Origin: a virus
Lineage: Duplodnaviria; Heunggongvirae; Uroviricota; Caudoviricetes
Virus record (IMG/VR): IMGVR_UViG_2751185970_000003
Reading direction: 5' to 3' (one strand)
Length of the DNA stretch: 17,229 nt
Part shown: positions 9,355 through 16,520 of the stretch, in pieces
Numbering within the stretch: the first letter of the stretch is position 1
How the letters are laid out: every line of letters begins with the position of its first letter
The notes under the pieces: generated by a model
What the model was told of the DNA's origin: nothing
Database searches by the model: none
Seen by the model: only the letters and a program-made list of their open reading frames with translations
Program-made: the position numbers and the translations under genes

Positions 9355-10155
9355 TTAACCGCGCTTCGCCTTCTGCGTCGCGGTGGTTTTTCGTGTTGCA
9401 GGCTTCCGCGTTGTCTTTTTACTTTTGCTGCTTTCGTCCTGCGCCTGCTGTGCGCTGGCGTCTTCTGGTTCGGCTGCGGAATCGGCTTTTTTCAGGGCGC
9501 GGGAAAGGGTTGCAATCTCGCGTTTCACACCTGCGTTCGGGTTCAGGTGCATTGCTTCGCGCAGCAGCTTCAGTGACAGGGCCATGCTGTCCGCATCACT
9601 CAGGCCACGGCGGGCAAAGGCGCACGCTTTGCATAATTTGGCGCGCACTTCGTCCGGCATGTCCTGGTCGGTGACAATCTCCCGGAGGGTGTCCAGTGGT
9701 TCGATAAAGGCGGACAAATCCGCGTCGGCATCCGTCCCGGCCTGCGTCAGTACCGGATTACAGATTTCTTCGGTCAGTACCGTGGCAGCAGTACGGCCAA
9801 AGTTATCCGGCATGATGAGGTTGTGACGGACTACATACGCGCCGATACGCAGCGCAAGCGGAAGATCGCCACAGTCAATCGCCCACACCATCAGCGTGGC
9901 AATCACTTCATCCTGCTGCCCGCCGTCAGCCTCCAGCGTTCCCTCAATCCAGCCGGAAAAATCCGGCAACAACTCTTTTTTGATGGCGGCTTTCGCGCTT
10001 CTGGCCTGTACGCCCTTAAGCCGGGCCTGTGCCAGACGCAGACGATACAGCACCTCTTCATGCGCGGTACGCGCGGCGTGGTCCACGCCTTCATTCGCCC
10101 GGCCTGCGCGCTGTGCCATCACGTTCTGCCAGTGTTGTTGTGCAGGAGTAATCAT
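9355..10155 (-). CDS. M: Terminase endonuclease (small) subunit gpM
   Basis: 266 aa, with a GGAGAG ribosome-binding site upstream of the ATG at 10155. Its position after the capsid gene and its basic C-terminal tail (KKTTRKPATRKTTATQKAKRG) fit P2 gpM. Confidence 0.85.
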   Translation of the reverse strand: MITPAQQHWQNVMAQRAGRANEGVDHAARTAHEEVLYRLRLAQARLKGVQARSAKAAIKKELLPDFSGWIEGTLEADGGQQDEVIATLMVWAIDCGDLPLALRIGAYVVRHNLIMPDNFGRTAATVLTEEICNPVLTQAGTDADADLSAFIEPLDTLREIVTDQDMPDEVRAKLCKACAFARRGLSDADSMALSLKLLREAMHLNPNAGVKREIATLSRALKKADSAAEPEDASAQQAQDESSKSKKTTRKPATRKTTATQKAKRG

Positions 10156-12266: not shown

Positions 12267-14018
12267 ATGATTCAGGACGCTTTTGTGCGCCAGCGTGCGC
12301 GGCAACTTTACTGGCAGGGTTATCCGCCCGCAGAAATATCACGTCTGATGGGAATAAACCCGAACACGATTTATGCGTGGAAAAAACGTGACCAGTGGGA
12401 TGAAACGCCACCCGGGCAGCGTGTCACGCAGTCCATCGATGCGCGCCTCATCCAGCTTACTGAAAAACAGAATAAAACAGGCGGTGACTTTAAGGAAATA
12501 GACCTGCTGACCCGGCAGCTTAAAAAGCTGCATGATGGCCAGCCGGATGTGATGGCCGCAGGAAAGAAAGGCCGGGCGAAAAAACTCAAAAATCATTTCA
12601 CGCCGGAACAGATTGCCGCACTGCGGGAAAAAATCATCAGCAGGCTGGAGTGGCATCAGCGGGGCTGGTTTGACTCCCTGACCCTTTGCAGGGAAGCCGG
12701 GATACGTAACAGGATGATCCTGAAATCCCGACAGATTGGGGCGACCTGGTATTTTGCACAGGAAGCACTGCTGATGGCGCTGCGTGACGATGTGGCGCAA
12801 CCTTACCAGCGTAACCAGATTTTTTTGTCTGCGTCGCGTCGTCAGGCGTTCCAGTTTAAAAGCATTATTCAGAAGGCCGCGGCTGAAGTTGATGTGGAGC
12901 TGAAAGGGGGCGATAAAATCATCCTCTCCAACGGCGCAGAGCTGCATTTTCTCGGCACTTCTGCTGCGTCGGCACAGTCCTATACGGGCAATTTTTATTT
13001 TGATGAATTTTTCTGGGTCAGTCGCTTTGCTGAACTGCGCAAGGTGGCTGGCGCTATGGCAACCCTCAGCGGACTGCGGCGCACCTACTTCTCCACGCCA
13101 TCCACCGAAACGCACGAGGCATACGCCTACTGGAACGGCGACCGCTGGAACGAGAAAAAGGCCTCGCATAAACGCCAGCGTTTTTCTGTGGACTGGAAAA
13201 CGCTGCATAACGGGCTTATCTGCCCTGACCGGACGTGGCGGCAAATTGTCACGCTGGAAGATGTGGTTAATCACGGCTGGAAACACACCGATATCGACGA
13301 AATTCGTGATGAAAACACCGAAGACGAGTTCCTCAATCTCTATATGTGTGAGTTTGTCCGCGAAGGGGAATCGGCATTTAACCTGAATATCCTGATTGGC
13401 TGCGGCGTTGACGGATACGACGACTGGAAAGACTGGAAACCTTTTGCTCCCCGCCCGATGGGGAATCGTCCGGTATGGATTGGGTATGACGCAAACGGCA
13501 GCAGTGGCAACGGCGACAGCGGCGCTGTGTCCGTGGTGGTTCCTCCGTCTGTTCCTGGTGGCCGTTTTCGAACGGTGGAGACGCGACGCGTTCAGGGGCT
13601 GGAGTTTGAAGAACAGGCCAGAGTCATTGAAGAGTTCACGTGTCGCTACAACGTGGAACACATCGGCATTGATGTGACGGGCGGGAACGGGGAGGCTGTT
13701 TATCAGATAGTGAAACGGTTTTTCCCTGCCGCTATTCCGTACACCTTCACGCTGTCATCAAAACGGTCGCTGGTACTGAAAATGCTGCAAATAATGCGTG
13801 CCGGGCGGTGGGAATACGATCGCGCCGAACGCGAGCTGGTCGCGGCCTTTAACGCCGTGCGTAAGGTGAAAACACCGGGCGGCTTTATCACTTACGAAAC
13901 GGACCGAGCGAGGGGGATCAGCCACGGCGACCTTGCGTGGGCAACCATGCTTGCTGTCATTAACGAACCGATTGGCGGCGAAGGAGAAAACGAGCGTTTC
14001 ACGGTTATGGAGTTCTGA
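12267..14018 (+). CDS. P: Terminase large subunit (ATPase) gpP
   Basis: 583 aa, with a GGGGGAG ribosome-binding site. The N-terminal MIQDAFVRQRARQLYWQGY...ISRLMGINPNTIYAWKKRDQW region and the overall size match P2 gpP. It overlaps the Q start by 1 nt (TGATG). Confidence 0.93.
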   Translation: MIQDAFVRQRARQLYWQGYPPAEISRLMGINPNTIYAWKKRDQWDETPPGQRVTQSIDARLIQLTEKQNKTGGDFKEIDLLTRQLKKLHDGQPDVMAAGKKGRAKKLKNHFTPEQIAALREKIISRLEWHQRGWFDSLTLCREAGIRNRMILKSRQIGATWYFAQEALLMALRDDVAQPYQRNQIFLSASRRQAFQFKSIIQKAAAEVDVELKGGDKIILSNGAELHFLGTSAASAQSYTGNFYFDEFFWVSRFAELRKVAGAMATLSGLRRTYFSTPSTETHEAYAYWNGDRWNEKKASHKRQRFSVDWKTLHNGLICPDRTWRQIVTLEDVVNHGWKHTDIDEIRDENTEDEFLNLYMCEFVREGESAFNLNILIGCGVDGYDDWKDWKPFAPRPMGNRPVWIGYDANGSSGNGDSGAVSVVVPPSVPGGRFRTVETRRVQGLEFEEQARVIEEFTCRYNVEHIGIDVTGGNGEAVYQIVKRFFPAAIPYTFTLSSKRSLVLKMLQIMRAGRWEYDRAERELVAAFNAVRKVKTPGGFITYETDRARGISHGDLAWATMLAVINEPIGGEGENERFTVMEF

Positions 14019-15064
14019 TGAGCAGAAAAAATAAAAAAGTGCGCATGAGTTCACGCATTGATCTCGCTGATGCGCTCAGGAAAGAATCATCGCTCAGTGC
14101 ATTCACATTTGATGGTCCTTATCGCCTGACCGGGCATGACCTGCTGGACAATATGTACTGTGCTGATAACGGGCGGTGGTATGAAACCCCGGTGGACTGG
14201 TACGGTCTGGCAAGAGCTGCCCGGCAAACGTCCTGGCATCAGTCTGCGCTTTATTTTAAGCGCAATGTATTGCTCGGTTGCTACATCCCGCACCCGCTGC
14301 TTTCCCGGCAGGATTTCTCGGCGCTGGCGCTGGACTGGTTTGTGTTCGGTAACGCATTCCTTGAGCTTCGAAGCAATATGCTCGGCGAACCGCTTAAATT
14401 ACGGCACGCCCTGGCGAAATACATGCGACGCGGAAGCGATCTTGAATCATGGAGGTATGTGCAGGATGGCAAGGATGCGTTTCAGTTTCGCCCAGGCAAA
14501 GTGTGTCACCTGATGAATCCTGACATTAACCAGGAAATCTACGGCATGCCGGAATATCTCGGCGCATTACTCTCGGCCAGCCTGTCTCATTCGGCGGACA
14601 TGTTCAGAAAACTGTATTACGACAACGGATCCCACGCCGGGTGCATCATCTACATCGGTGCCGCGCAGGTAAACCGCGAAAGCATGGACTCCCTGAAAGA
14701 AACGCTACAGGGTGCGCGTGGTGGTGGTGCGTTTAAAAACGTGCTCATTCATGCGCCCAACGGGGGCAAAGAGGGGGTGCAAATTTTGCCGTTCCAGCAG
14801 ATCACCGCAAAGGATGAGTTCATGAATGTTAAGGCGGCATCCCGTGATGATGTGCTGGCTGCGCACCGCGTTCCGCCGCAACTGATGGGGGCGATGCCGG
14901 GTGAAAAAAGTGCGTTTGGTGATGTGGAGAAGGCCGCGCGGGTTTACGCAATTAACGAGCTGATGCCCGTCATGGAGGCCATGAAGCACATCAATGACTG
15001 GCTTGGCGAAGAGGTGATCCGCTTTAACCCTTACGCACTGTTAGACATCCAGCCCACATCCTGA
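14018..15064 (+). CDS. Q: Portal (capsid vertex) protein gpQ
   Basis: 348 aa, MSRKNKKVRMSSRIDLADALRKES...; the size and position downstream of P fit P2 gpQ. Confidence 0.92.
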   Translation: MSRKNKKVRMSSRIDLADALRKESSLSAFTFDGPYRLTGHDLLDNMYCADNGRWYETPVDWYGLARAARQTSWHQSALYFKRNVLLGCYIPHPLLSRQDFSALALDWFVFGNAFLELRSNMLGEPLKLRHALAKYMRRGSDLESWRYVQDGKDAFQFRPGKVCHLMNPDINQEIYGMPEYLGALLSASLSHSADMFRKLYYDNGSHAGCIIYIGAAQVNRESMDSLKETLQGARGGGAFKNVLIHAPNGGKEGVQILPFQQITAKDEFMNVKAASRDDVLAAHRVPPQLMGAMPGEKSAFGDVEKAARVYAINELMPVMEAMKHINDWLGEEVIRFNPYALLDIQPTS

Positions 15065-15091
15065 CGCGCTTCGCTTGTCTGCTGCTTCGCC

Positions 15092-15114
15092 GGGGCATAA
15101 AAAATTTATGCCCC
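15092..15114 (+). terminator. Hairpin immediately downstream of Q
   Basis: GGGGCATAAA-aaa-TTTATGCCCC has a 10-bp stem and begins 28 nt after the Q stop. There is no strong U-tract, so it may act as an RNA stability element or weak terminator. Confidence 0.45.
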
Positions 15115-15283
15115 GACTCTCCAGCTCCTGTATCAGTCAGATAATTTCACGACGCCTTCCAGTTTATCGCCACCATCGACGGTCAGACTCTTACGCAATC
15201 CCACCGCGTTGACTGCATGTTCTCGCCGCCTCAGTGCGATTTTGACGGCCTTACCTTTCACCCCATCAAATCAGAATCCCTCA

Positions 15284-15314
15284 CGTATTTTTCACGCTCA
15301 GCGTGAGAAATACG
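15284..15314. other. 31-bp near-perfect palindrome in the cos-proximal non-coding region
   Basis: CGTATTTTTCACGCT-c-AGCGTGAGAAATACG has 15-bp arms with a single mismatch; it is a candidate protein-binding or packaging element. Confidence 0.6.
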
Positions 15315-15393
15315 GCCATTCTGTCGTGTCGCTGCGACATCGTTAAGGGAACGCTATTTACCCCCTGAAACGCGGGCTGTTCCCCCGTCACCT

Positions 15394-15418
15394 GCGCGCA
15401 GAAAAAGCGCGTTTTTTT
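15394..15418 (+). terminator. Rho-independent terminator (plus strand)
   Basis: GCGCGC-agaaaaa-GCGCG followed by TTTTTTT at 15412..15418. Confidence 0.6.
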
Positions 15419-15488
15419 GTGCACGCACGGATCCTTGACGGATCCAGCCGCCACGCGGGCTGGAAGGGCAAAAATTCGTTCAAAAAAA

Positions 15489-15515
15489 TTGTGCAAATTT
15501 GTGCACTATTGTGCA
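15489..15515. repeat. Three direct TTGTGCA repeats with exact 10-bp phasing
   Basis: aTTGTGCAaa tTTGTGCAct aTTGTGCAgc at 15489, 15499 and 15509, preceded by an A-tract. The one-helical-turn spacing suggests an array of protein-binding sites. Confidence 0.6.
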
Positions 15516-15517
15516 GC

Positions 15518-15541
15518 AGGGCGATGTGCGATTATCGCCCT
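15518..15541 (-). terminator. Stem-loop 14 nt downstream of the Ea22-like gene stop (possible terminator)
   Basis: AGGGCGAT-gtgcgatt-ATCGCCCT has an 8-bp stem. No immediate U-tract follows on the minus strand. Confidence 0.3.
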
Positions 15542-15554
15542 GGTTTGAGGGGGA

Positions 15555-16145
15555 TCAGGTGTTATTTTTATCTGTCGTCAGTGGGCTAAACCATCCACAA
15601 TTTACATCGCATGACTGATGCGTTCTGTCCTCGTGTTTCTCCTGCCACAATGCTTTTCCGCCAGCCTTTATGATGGCTCTTTCAACATCCCGCTCGTATC
15701 GCAAGGGCTGAAATACGTCATTAATGAAATATTCGCTTATGTCCGGAAGCGATACTGCAAAATTATTTGTTTGTTGCGCCGTCCTGCTATGCAGCAAAGC
15801 GGCATGCTTTAATGCGTCCTGTGCTTTCTGGAATTTAAGTGCATAGTCAGTGGCGATTTTTTCCAGTTCAGCGATTCGGTTGTCTTTGGTTTCCAGCCAA
15901 TCAAGTAGCGCCAATACTTCAGGATCCCCGACATCCAACACTGTTACGCGTGATTTTTCATAATGTTCGTCAGCAAGAGTTCGGCCAATTTTGAAATCTC
16001 CATCATCACCATAACCGGAGCAGGCATAAACAACCTGTGCTCCAGATATTCGCTGAATTGACATTTCCTCGCCGCAAATAGGGCATTTCGGTACTGGCAC
16101 AGGTGAATAACGTTCACGTAATGCCTGATAGTTGATTTCGCTCAT
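15555..16145 (-). CDS. Ead/Ea22-like family protein with an N-terminal zinc-ribbon (CPICGEEM...YACSGYG) and a central coiled-coil; function unknown
   Basis: 196 aa, with an AAGGAGA ribosome-binding site 8 nt upstream of the ATG. MSEINYQALRERY... and PEVLALLDWLETKDNRIAELEK resemble the Ea22-like proteins of enterobacterial prophages that I remember. The gene is visibly lower in GC than the flanking phage genes. Confidence 0.7.
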   Translation of the reverse strand: MSEINYQALRERYSPVPVPKCPICGEEMSIQRISGAQVVYACSGYGDDGDFKIGRTLADEHYEKSRVTVLDVGDPEVLALLDWLETKDNRIAELEKIATDYALKFQKAQDALKHAALLHSRTAQQTNNFAVSLPDISEYFINDVFQPLRYERDVERAIIKAGGKALWQEKHEDRTHQSCDVNCGWFSPLTTDKNNT

Positions 16146-16208
16146 TAAGTCGTTCTCCTTGTTTATGTTCTGAGGTGGAGAGCAGGGCGAACTCGCCCTG
16201 ATGTTGTG

Positions 16209-16520
16209 TTATTCAGGAAATAACGCCCGGATATTTCCGGCCATCTGACTGGTTATCTGTGCGGTTGATACTGGCTGTGATGCGGGGCGTTCTGTCCTGG
16301 TTTGTGTCACTGATAACGCTTCATCACCAGCCCATGCAGCCAGTCGATAAGCCTCTGCCGGATTCATTTTCAGAAGTGCCAGCCCGGCCAGAAAAGCCAC
16401 GCGTTGGCCGCTTTTGCGGGCTTCTGGTGTAAGGCTGTCCAGCCAGGCGCATGCTTCTCCTTCGTTCTTGACGGCGGTGGGCTTCAGATAGAAACTTATC
16501 CGTCTGGTTGGAGTCGTCAT
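16209..16520 (-). CDS. parR: ParR/StbB-like ribbon-helix-helix centromere-binding protein
   Basis: 103 aa from the ATG at 16520 (MTTPTRRISFYLKP...AWLDSLTPEARKSGQRVAFLAGLALL...), resembling R1 ParR (RRTIAFKLNP...LDSIPQGERSRLNRAALTAGLALY). It starts 4 nt after the parM stop, the same gene order as R1 parM-parR. Confidence 0.7.
   Translation of the reverse strand: MTTPTRRISFYLKPTAVKNEGEACAWLDSLTPEARKSGQRVAFLAGLALLKMNPAEAYRLAAWAGDEALSVTQTRTERPASQPVSTAQITSQMAGNIRALFPE

What the first reader, a model, noticed from the sequence alone, without database searches (positions are those of the whole stretch)
15489..15515. Three TTGTGCA direct repeats at exact 10-bp spacing
Helically phased direct repeats are characteristic of cooperative protein-binding arrays such as terminase small-subunit sites in cosB-like regions, iterons or regulator operators. 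They sit between the cos-proximal region and the 3' end of the cargo gene and are flanked by A-tracts that would bend DNA. No known P2 operator (C repressor, Cox boxes) has this sequence as far as I recall.
Basis: seen in the sequence. Interest (0 to 1): 0.5.

Follow-up and report, generated by a model that had tools for sequence, protein, structure and literature searches.

The report
Phased repeats in phage packaging site
The three TTGTGCA repeats are real and form the outer edge of this P2-like prophage's DNA-packaging (cos) signal: related phages, and parasitic satellite elements that share nothing else with them, keep the repeats unchanged, so they most likely guide the packaging enzyme.

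Summary
Chance expectation is about 7e-5 per period.

The window is a P88/Xuanwuvirus-type P2-like prophage. In about 1,150 E. coli genomes, similarity to relatives stops at 15515/15516, the last base of the third repeat. Variable cargo begins there.

A scan seeded only on the cos core recovered about 21 Enterobacterales loci. All carry the array at the same offset.

Ten of the elements examined are satellites with no portal or terminase. Their only similarity to the phage is a roughly 160-bp module:
- the cos core;
- T-run plus TTGTGCA;
- a 35-nt spacer of variable sequence but fixed length;
- A-run plus 3x TTGTGCA.

P2, 186, P4 and Ralstonia phiRSA1 carry TGCAT repeats in the same geometry, 72 and 82 bp from a cos-proximal TGCA. 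Pseudomonas phiCTX has YGCAG repeats 71 and 81 bp from its proximal copy.

The array is therefore the P88-type version of a conserved distal, cosB-like element of P2-family cos sites. It is probably bound by terminase (gpM/gpP), but no binding was tested. The cos nick position is inferred, and I could not read the 1990 paper that dissected the cos site.

Verdict: new member of a known kind, moderate interest.

The parts
15489..15515 (+). Three direct TTGTGCA repeats at 10-bp spacing: the distal recognition element of the cos site and the last conserved bases before the variable cargo
   Evidence: presence and chance. (similarity to relatives ends at 15515/16). (present at a fixed offset in all Enterobacterales loci found through the cos core alone). 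(kept in satellites).
15466..15488 (+). Conserved GGGCAAAAA ... TC AAAAAAA lead-in to the array (A5 and A7 tracts); together with the repeats this forms 'block C'
   Evidence: Alignments A1: the A6-7 run and GGG(C/T)A(A/T)AAA are near-invariant in phages and satellites. No exact IHF consensus was seen by eye; no scan was run.
15430..15465 (+). Spacer whose sequence is free to vary but whose length is conserved (about 35 nt)
   Evidence: ungapped alignment with the satellite, sequence not conserved; length constant to within 1 nt in 23 sequences.
15412..15429 (+). Block B: T7 run plus the fourth TTGTGCA copy (15417-15423) plus CGCACG; the cos-proximal copy of the motif
   Evidence: TTTTT(T/C)GTGCA is conserved in all lineages. 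It corresponds to P2/P4/186 'TGCATTAAAA' inside the published 55-bp core.
15393..15411 (+). 19-nt GC-rich palindromic segment (GCGCGC-agaaaaa-GCGCG) between the predicted nick and block B; same length as P2's CCGCCC..GGGCGG segment
   Evidence: hairpin. The sequence is not conserved in satellites or other genera, but the length is.
15374..15392 (-). Predicted 19-nt cohesive-end sequence GGTGACGGGGGAACAGCCC (cosN), inside conserved block A (15356-15399); the nick position is uncertain by about 2 nt
   Evidence: Inference. It is colinear with the P2 GGCGAGGCGGGGAAAGCAC core (13/19 ungapped) with identical 19-nt spacing to the T-run/TGCA block. Block A is 43/44 identical in the satellite. Not mapped experimentally.
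9355..10155 (-). Terminase small subunit (gpM homologue), the candidate binder of the repeats
   Evidence: Pfam PF05944, E = 5.6e-37; 36% identical to P2 gpM.
12267..14018 (+). Terminase large subunit (gpP homologue)
   Evidence: 44% identical to P2 gpP over 593 aa.
14018..15064 (+). Portal protein (gpQ homologue); its 3' end faces the cos region as in P2
   Evidence: 47% identical to P2 gpQ; annotated as portal in relatives.
15517..16145 (-). Variable cargo module abutting the array: hairpin 15517-15542 and an Ead/Ea22-like ORF 15555-16145. Not part of the packaging signal; it marks where conservation ends.
   Evidence: Pfam PF13935. Present in only a minority of relatives. At least 10 different sequences follow the third repeat in other lineages.

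Best explanation
The three TTGTGCA repeats are the distal, cosB-like half of the cos packaging signal of a P88/Xuanwuvirus-type P2-like phage. The functional module spans roughly 15356-15516, about 160 bp, and reads from the portal side as follows: the cleavage core (predicted 19-nt cohesive end at about 15374-15392); a 19-nt GC-rich segment; one proximal TTGTGCA with a T-run; a 35-nt spacer of fixed length and free sequence; then A-tracts and three phased TTGTGCA copies lying 72, 82 and 92 bp from the proximal copy. The proposed mechanism is inferred, not shown. Terminase, most likely an oligomer of the small subunit gpM, contacts the same face of the helix at the phased copies and at the proximal copy. 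It bends or wraps the intervening DNA, with the A-tracts and perhaps a host bending protein helping. This positions the large subunit gpP to nick about 100 bp away. Satellites must carry the same module to be packaged by this helper. What is shown: the element is under strong purifying selection, its boundary coincides with the end of the third repeat, and it is shared by phages and satellites. Its geometry also matches the TGCAT repeats of P2, 186, P4 and phiRSA1.
For: (1) In blast searches against 5,426 complete E. coli genomes, about 1,150 carry the region, and in nearly all of them similarity ends at window 15515/15516. The same holds in P88-like phage records and in Enterobacter phage phiT5282H, which matches only 15371-15515. 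(2) An unbiased test: a genome-collection scan with a 19-mer from the cos core (15379-15397), not the array, gave 36 loci. All of the roughly 21 Enterobacterales loci carry AAAAAAATTGTGCAAAtTTGTGCACtaTTGTGCA at the same offset. The 15 chance hits in high-GC genomes do not. At least 10 unrelated sequences follow the third repeat. (3) Satellites lack portal, terminase and tail genes: their gene content is capsid, a 236-aa ORF, ogr/Delta-like, integrase and toprim primase. They share only L008 5985-6151 with the phage. That segment holds blocks A, B and C, with a non-conserved spacer of equal length. Satellite proteins from other genera are only 42-59% identical to the E. coli ones, yet the array is intact. 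Helper and satellite co-reside in Enterobacter hormaechei B17-3 and in Izhakiella. (4) The geometry is conserved across the family. TGCA starts relative to the cos nick are: P2 -123/-111/-101/-29; P4 -124/-111/-101/-29; 186 -124/-111/-101/-29; phiRSA1 -129/-110/-100/-29; phiCTX (YGCAG) -109/-99/-28; window -123/-113/-103/-31 with the inferred nick. Proximal-to-distal spacings of 72 and 82 bp are identical in the window, P2, P4 and 186; phiRSA1 and phiCTX give 71 and 81. (5) In 66 non-redundant P2-type loci chosen by the core alone, information content is 0-0.2 bit in the flanks but 0.7-1.1 bit at the two TGCAT positions. 88 of 117 loci have TGCA at both -111 and -101 (each within 1 nt), and 0 of 117 have the TTGTGCA type. 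Core type and array type therefore co-vary. (6) Chance is excluded.
Against: No binding or packaging experiment exists for this sequence, and the identity of the binder is inference. The cos nick in P88-type phages is inferred from colinearity with P2. The GenBank record of P88_4B11 (LR595891) instead starts and ends at window 15470|15471, inside block C. Conservation of block A in the genome scan is partly by construction, because it was the search key. In P2-type sites the third, outermost repeat varies in position (-120 to -129), and 29 of 117 loci lack one of the two inner TGCA positions. So not every copy is indispensable. The direction of P2-family packaging relative to this side of cos is not known to me, so 'cosB' (initiation) is an analogy rather than a demonstrated role. 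The terminase small subunit is no more diverged from P2 (36%) than the scaffold protein is (36%). Protein divergence therefore gives no specific co-variation signal.
Confidence: 0.75

Rival explanations
1. The array is an architectural site for a host nucleoid protein (IHF, Fis or HU), or simply intrinsically bent DNA. It would still serve packaging, but terminase itself would not read it.
For: A-tracts (A5, A7, A3) flank and interleave the repeats and are conserved. The phiCTX GenBank record annotates an IHF site and repeats near cosR. Lambda cosB uses IHF (established knowledge).
Against: The conserved letters are the TTGTGCA/TGCAT cores, not just the A/T tracts. The motif type switches together with the cos-core type, 0 of 117 against about 21 of 21. 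That is expected for a phage-specific reader, not for a host protein shared by all these hosts. I saw no exact WATCAANNNNTTR match in 15466-15516 by eye; the nearest candidate has a 5-nt rather than 4-nt gap. No scan was run.
Confidence: 0.12
2. The repeats and the following T-run (on the minus strand) act as an intrinsic terminator or insulator. It would stop transcription of the converging cargo genes before it enters cos.
For: The consensus scan finds a terminator-like site on the minus strand: GTGCACAAATTTGCAC plus AATTTTTTTG, at 15506-15491. The cargo ORF 15555-16145 reads toward it.
Against: The stem is only 5 bp (3 G-C). The fold of the region is dominated by the cargo-specific hairpin 15517-15542, which is not conserved. 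A terminator needs two arms, not three phased copies plus a fourth 72 bp away. P2-type TGCAT arrays cannot form an equivalent stem with a T-run. In P2 the array instead overlaps the -35 region of the outward-reading old promoter. Satellites keep the array next to about 700 bp of non-coding DNA.
Confidence: 0.06
3. The array is a recombination or cargo-exchange site that defines the edge of the defence/cargo hotspot next to cos.
For: The cargo junction lies exactly at the end of the third repeat in more than 1,000 genomes. Rousset et al. 2022 (PMC9122126) note that hotspots abut cos and speculate that cos ends promote recombination.
Against: In P4 the hotspot (gop side) lies on the other side of cos, while the TGCAT array sits between psu and cos. 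The array is kept at the same base-pair distance from the cos core in phages with no hotspot on that side (phiRSA1). A sharp boundary is what purifying selection on a packaging signal next to freely exchangeable DNA would produce anyway.
Confidence: 0.04
4. The array has a termination-type role like lambda cosQ, acting at the end of packaging rather than in initial recognition.
For: The array lies on the genome-end ('right end') side of the nick in the P2 map orientation. In lambda that is the cosQ side (established knowledge).
Against: From my own knowledge (Pruss et al. 1975; not re-read here), P2-family phages package from monomeric circles, so a single cos event makes both ends. Four phased copies spread over 100 bp look like a multi-site recognition array, not the single 7-bp cosQ.
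Confidence: 0.08

Closest known systems
P2/P4/186 cos site (55-bp conserved core of Ziermann & Calendar 1990, as cited in PMC5694545 and PMC9594776)
   Same: Same genomic position, just beyond the end of the portal gene. Same order of parts: G-rich 19-mer, 19-nt GC-rich segment, T/A-run with TGCA. It also has the same distal pair of phased TGCA-containing repeats, 72 and 82 bp from the proximal copy. It is likewise shared with satellites.
   Different: The repeat word is TTGTGCA rather than (T)TGCAT. The three copies are exactly 10 bp apart (P2-type: 12-13 bp then 10 bp). The core 19-mer matches P2 at only 13 of 19 positions. The head proteins are 36-47% identical to P2's. The recent papers I could read describe only the 55-bp core as shared between P2 and P4; none mentions the distal repeats.
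Bacteriophage lambda cosB (gpNu1 R3-I1-R2-R1 sites)
   Same: Several copies of one recognition word on one side of the nicking site, spread over about 100-120 bp. One copy is near cosN and the others lie beyond a spacer that tolerates sequence change. Presumed reader: the terminase small subunit.
   Different: No sequence relationship. All four copies here are direct repeats. No clear IHF site. The terminase small subunit belongs to a different family (PF05944). Whether this side is packaged first is unknown.
phiCTX cos region repeats (R4-R6 and IHF site annotated in NC_003278)
   Same: A P2-family phage for which repeats next to cosR were already annotated. YGCAG copies lie at -109, -99, -37 and -28, the same geometry.
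   Different: Different repeat word. I could not read the original paper, so I do not know what function its authors assigned.
Satellites that copy a helper's cos site (P4; cos-type PICIs such as SaPIbov5)
   Same: Satellite elements carry the helper's complete packaging signal, including this array.
   Different: The satellites found here encode their own P2-family capsid protein. They pair with the P88-type cos rather than the P2-type.

Membership tests
P2-family (Peduoviridae) cos packaging site | Lies just beyond the 3' end of the portal gene of a Q-P / O-N-M head gene cluster | tested here: met
   Q 14018-15064, P 12267-14018 and M 9355-10155 are identified by similarity to P2 and by Pfam. 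The same arrangement occurs in 13 related loci.
P2-family (Peduoviridae) cos packaging site | Core colinear with the 55-bp P2/P4 core (TGCA + A/T-run, 19-nt GC-rich segment, G-rich 19-nt cohesive end) | tested here: met
   The order of parts and the 19-nt spacing are identical. The 19-mer matches P2 at 13/19 ungapped. Similarity is too low for blast, so this rests on architecture.
P2-family (Peduoviridae) cos packaging site | 19-nt 5' cohesive ends generated at this site in virion DNA | not testable with these tools
   No virion end data are available. The only linear record (LR595891) breaks at 15470|15471, which disagrees with the predicted nick.
P2-family (Peduoviridae) cos packaging site | Module shared with satellites that lack terminase | tested here: met
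   Satellites in E. coli (56 genomes) and in five other genera share only this roughly 160-bp module.
P2-family (Peduoviridae) cos packaging site | Distal phased TGCA-containing repeats 72 and 82 bp from the proximal copy (a feature defined here) | tested here: met
   The window gives 72/82/92 bp. P2 gives 72/82/94, P4 and 186 72/82/95, and phiRSA1 71/81/100.
Lambda-type cosB | Repeats bound by the terminase small subunit | not testable with these tools
   Needs EMSA or footprinting with the gpM homologue (9355-10155).
Lambda-type cosB | IHF site between the proximal and distal repeats | not tested
   No consensus scan was run. Reading the sequence by eye, I saw no exact WATCAANNNNTTR in 15430-15516. 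ATCAA-N5-TTG in other lineages is off by one base.
Lambda-type cosB | Located on the side of cosN that enters the capsid first | not testable with these tools
   I could not establish packaging polarity for P2-type phages from the accessible literature.
Intrinsic (rho-independent) terminator | Stable G+C-rich stem followed by a U-run, with pairing conserved in relatives | tested here: not met
   There is only a 5-bp stem (3 G-C) on the minus strand. It is not part of the minimum-energy fold. P2-type arrays have no equivalent stem.
Iterons / replication origin | Repeats adjacent to or within a replication initiator gene or origin | tested here: not met
   The neighbours are the portal gene and an Ead/Ea22-like cargo gene. 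The array travels with cos, not with any replication gene, in both phages and satellites.
Promoter operator | Overlaps or adjoins a promoter that it could regulate | tested here: not met
   No sigma-70-like site in 15000-16300, and both flanking genes converge on the region. In P2 itself the array does overlap the -35 region of the old promoter, but that is lineage-specific.

The most novel reading that the evidence does not exclude
The phased YGCA-type repeats are the long-undefined terminase recognition (cosB) element of the whole P2 family. Their word variant (TGCAT in P2/186/P4/phiRSA1, TTGTGCA in P88-type, YGCAG in phiCTX) would then act as a packaging specificity code. That code would decide which satellites a given helper can mobilise: P4-like satellites pairing with P2/186-type helpers, and the capsid-encoding satellites found here pairing with P88-type helpers.
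Probability: 0.45. Interest if true: 0.6.

Novelty: new member of a known kind. Interest (0 to 1): 0.45.

Why it matters
The result gives a base-pair-precise, testable definition of the packaging signal of a prophage type present in about a fifth of complete E. coli genomes.

It also explains why the well-known defence/cargo hotspot of P2-like phages starts exactly where it does: the last base of the third repeat is the last base under selection for packaging.

Recent papers describe the sequence shared by P2 and P4 as 55 bp. The shared signal appears to extend well beyond that, to a distal repeat array that has been kept in the same geometry from Escherichia to Ralstonia.

There are two practical uses:
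- designing minimal, efficient cosmids for P2/P4-based delivery particles;
- predicting helper-satellite compatibility from the repeat word.

Tried and rejected
(1) My first guess for the cos site was GCGTGGCGG at about 15449-15457, which resembles the cohesive end of 186. I rejected it because it lies in the 35-nt spacer that is not conserved in the satellite or in other genera.

(2) I tried to use GenBank record termini to locate the cohesive ends. Only LR595891 breaks within the region, at 15470|15471. That point is in an A-run inside block C and is not colinear with P2, so I left it unresolved.

(3) A blast search with the P2 cos junction against E. coli genomes was meant to find the hotspot boundary in P2-type phages. 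The alignments start only at the 55-bp core (query position 148), because the spacer is too variable for blast to extend through it. The array therefore had to be assessed by fixed-offset analysis instead.

(4) Literature: I could not obtain Ziermann & Calendar 1990 or the Christie & Calendar P2 review. Five full-text searches found no description of distal cos repeats in P2-like phages.

(5) Rfam found nothing relevant; the only match was a sub-threshold nadA hit at 15678-15762.

(6) The promoter scan found none.

(7) I looked for co-variation between the terminase small subunit and the repeat word. It was uninformative, because all head proteins are similarly diverged from P2: M 36%, O 36%, P 44%, Q 47%.

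(8) HP1 has a different repeat word (CACGGAAA) and does not fit the same geometry, so I did not use it as support.

Full report
**Observation**

TTGTGCA occurs at 15489, 15499 and 15509 on the + strand, at exact 10-bp spacing. The 7-mer is not enriched in the window as a whole: 6 copies against 4.2 expected. The phased triplet, however, is unique in the window. Its analytic expectation is 7.5e-5 per period, and only 1 of 1500 Markov simulations produced any phased triple 7-mer at periods 9-12. A fourth copy in the same orientation sits at 15417-15423 behind a T7 run.

**Context**

The window is a P2-like prophage. The head genes are:
- terminase large subunit, 12267-14018, 44% identical to P2 gpP;
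- portal, 14018-15064, 47% identical to gpQ;
- scaffold, 36% identical to gpO;
- terminase small subunit, 9355-10155, Pfam PF05944, 36% identical to gpM.

The closest phage records are P88-like Xuanwuvirus genomes. About 490 nt of non-coding DNA follow the portal gene. Then comes a converging Ead/Ea22-like ORF at 15555-16145. This is the position of the variable cargo/defence hotspot that Rousset et al. 2022 describe next to cos in P2-like phages (PMC9122126).

**The array is the edge of the conserved backbone**

A 561-nt query (15060-15620) matches 1,146 of 5,426 complete E. coli genomes. A 155-nt query (15366-15520) matches 1,153. In nearly all listed rows the alignment stops at window 15515 or 15516, the last base of the third repeat. 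Phage records behave the same way. The distant Enterobacter phage phiT5282H matches only 15371-15515.

**An unbiased conservation test**

I scanned one genome per species (185,579 species) with a 19-mer from the cos core (15379-15397) that does not touch the array. Of 36 loci returned, 15 are chance hits in high-G+C genomes. About 21 are Enterobacterales: Kluyvera, Erwinia, Pantoea, Mixta, Kosakonia, Enterobacter, Apirhabdus, Citrobacter, Izhakiella, Escherichia, Salmonella, and a probably contaminated 'Vagococcus' assembly.

Every one of the 21 carries AAAAAAATTGTGCAAAtTTGTGCACtaTTGTGCA at the same offset; one locus is a single nucleotide shorter. At least ten unrelated sequences begin immediately after the third repeat.

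**The satellite test**

One weak E. coli hit (77.6% identity) is not a phage. It is a roughly 10-kb island with these genes: a P2-family major capsid gene, a 236-aa ORF, an ogr/Delta-like gene, an integrase, a toprim primase and an Icd-like gene. It has no portal, terminase or tail genes. The family occurs in 56 E. coli genomes. Its only similarity to P88-type phages is L008 5985-6151, which corresponds to window about 15350-15516.

The ungapped alignment shows four segments:
- Block A (15356-15399): 43 of 44 positions identical.
- Block B (15412-15429, T-run plus TTGTGCA plus CGCACG): identical.
- A 35-nt spacer with no sequence conservation but the same length.
- Block C (15466-15516, GGGCAAAAA...A-run plus three repeats): conserved.

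Similarity ends right after the third repeat.

tblastn shows that six more loci from the genome scan are satellites of the same type. They come from Kluyvera, Erwinia dacicola, Apirhabdus, Enterobacter hormaechei, Izhakiella and Escherichia sp. In the five from other genera the proteins are only 42-59% identical to the E. coli ones. Thirteen loci are helper phages with portal and terminase next to cos. Helper and satellite co-reside in two genomes. An element that needs nothing from the phage DNA except to be packaged keeps the array base for base. This is the strongest evidence that the array belongs to the packaging signal.

**Where the cleavage site is**

Reading the minus strand gives the following comparison.

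| Part | Window | P2 |
|---|---|---|
| Proximal TGCA block | GTGCACAAAAAAA | GTGCATTAAAA |
| 19-nt GC-rich segment | CGCGCTTTTTCTGCGCGCA | CCGCCCCGTGAAGCGGGCG |
| G-rich 19-mer | GGTGACGGGGGAACAGCCC | GGCGAGGCGGGGAAAGCAC |

The order of parts is the same, both middle segments are 19 nt, and the 19-mers match at 13 of 19 positions. The Klebsiella Reipivirus ST16-OXA48phi5.4 is an intermediate with the same layout.

I therefore place cosN at about 15374-15392, with an uncertainty of about 2 nt. This is inference. The linear record LR595891 breaks at 15470|15471 instead. My first guess, GCGTGGCGG at about 15449, lies in the non-conserved spacer and was dropped.

**The same geometry across the P2 family**

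TGCA (or YGCA) starts relative to the nick:

| Phage | Positions |
|---|---|
| P2 | -123, -111, -101, -29 |
| P4 | -124, -111, -101, -35, -29 |
| 186 | -124/-120, -111, -101, -35, -29 |
| Ralstonia phiRSA1 | -129, -110, -100, -35, -29 |
| Pseudomonas phiCTX (YGCAG) | -109, -99, -37, -28 |
| Window (inferred nick) | -123, -113, -103, -31 |

Independently of where the nick lies, the distances from the proximal copy to the two nearest distal copies are 72 and 82 bp in the window, P2, P4 and 186.

I also retrieved 117 IMG/VR loci through the P2-type core alone, of which 66 are non-redundant. In these, the flanks and spacer carry 0-0.2 bit per column, while the two TGCAT positions carry 0.7-1.1 bit. 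88 of 117 loci have TGCA at both -111 and -101 (each within 1 nt), and none has the TTGTGCA type. Core type and repeat word therefore co-vary without exception in this sample.

The phiCTX GenBank record already annotates repeats R4-R6 and an IHF site at cosR. Recent papers describe P2 and P4 as sharing only a 55-bp core (PMC9594776; PMC5694545).

**Mechanism**

Shown: purifying selection on four same-strand copies of one word, a fixed-length spacer of free sequence, and a sharp outer boundary. Also shown: the module is shared between helpers and satellites, and the repeat word co-varies with the cleavage core.

Inferred: terminase, most likely a gpM oligomer, reads the phased copies on one face of the helix. 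The first two distal copies are about 7 and 8 helical turns from the proximal one. The spacer would be bent or wrapped, and gpP positioned at cosN. This resembles lambda cosB (R3-I1-R2-R1) in logic but not in sequence, repeat orientation or protein family. I could not determine whether this side of cos enters the capsid first.

**Rivals**

- Host architectural protein: unlikely as the sole reader, because the word switches with the phage type.
- Terminator on the minus strand: weak, with a 5-bp stem that is not in the minimum-energy fold. It does not explain three phased copies plus a fourth, and it is absent in P2-type arrays.
- Cargo-exchange site: disfavoured. In P4 the hotspot is on the other side of cos, yet the array stays at the same distance.
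- Iterons or operator: no replication gene and no promoter nearby.

**Verdict**

The element is the P88-type member of a conserved class of cos-flanking recognition repeats.

I therefore rate novelty conservatively and interest as moderate.

Noticed in passing
L008 2500-12150 (NZ_CP122604 4123-4133 kb); also L009, L016, L019, L029, L034, L038, L044: A satellite-like island family carries, in order: a MazEF-like pair, a P2-family major capsid gene (Pfam PF05125), a 236-aa ORF with no Pfam match, ogr/Delta-like, a P88-type cos, integrase, toprim primase and Icd-like. It has no portal, terminase or tail genes. It occurs in 56 complete E. coli genomes and in five other Enterobacterales genera. All members seen carry the TTGTGCA-type cos, whereas P4-like elements carry the TGCAT type.
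   Followed up: partly
window 15470-15471: The linear GenBank record of Xuanwuvirus P88_4B11 (LR595891) starts and ends exactly here, within the A5 run of the conserved lead-in to the array. This is about 80 nt from the cos nick predicted by colinearity with P2. It is either an arbitrary assembly break or a sign that the nick prediction is wrong.
   Followed up: partly
P2-type loci L049-L168, positions -65 to -51 from the cos nick: Midway between the proximal and distal TGCA copies there is a moderately conserved inverted repeat, GCCAGnnCTGGCG (0.5-0.9 bit per column). It could be a further protein site. No obvious counterpart exists in the P88-type spacer.
   Followed up: no
L001 653-679 (P2 33452-33478): In P2 itself the TGCAT array overlaps positions -27 to -54 of the old-tin promoter (annotated transcript starts 33424/33426, minus strand). 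In that phage the packaging repeats and a cargo promoter therefore share DNA.
   Followed up: no
L024 (NZ_JBQPOM010000071, 'Vagococcus sp. WN89Y'): A contig assigned to a Gram-positive Vagococcus carries a near-identical E. coli-type P88-like prophage end (portal 98.6% identical to the window's). This is probably contamination or a mis-binned contig.
   Followed up: no
L172 (phiCTX 35200-35580): The phiCTX record annotates 'R3' and 'R4, R5, R6' repeats and an IHF binding site around cosR. YGCAG copies fall at -109, -99, -37 and -28, matching the P2-family geometry.
   Followed up: partly
window 15430-15446: A direct repeat of the palindromic BamHI site (GGATCCttgacGGATCC) lies in the spacer. 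It is specific to the E. coli/Salmonella lineage and absent from satellites and other genera.
   Followed up: no
window 15394-15412: GCGCGCagaaaaaGCGCG plus T7 scores as a plus-strand intrinsic terminator, directly after the predicted cohesive end. The hairpin is not conserved in satellites or other genera, but the length of the segment (19 nt) is.
   Followed up: partly
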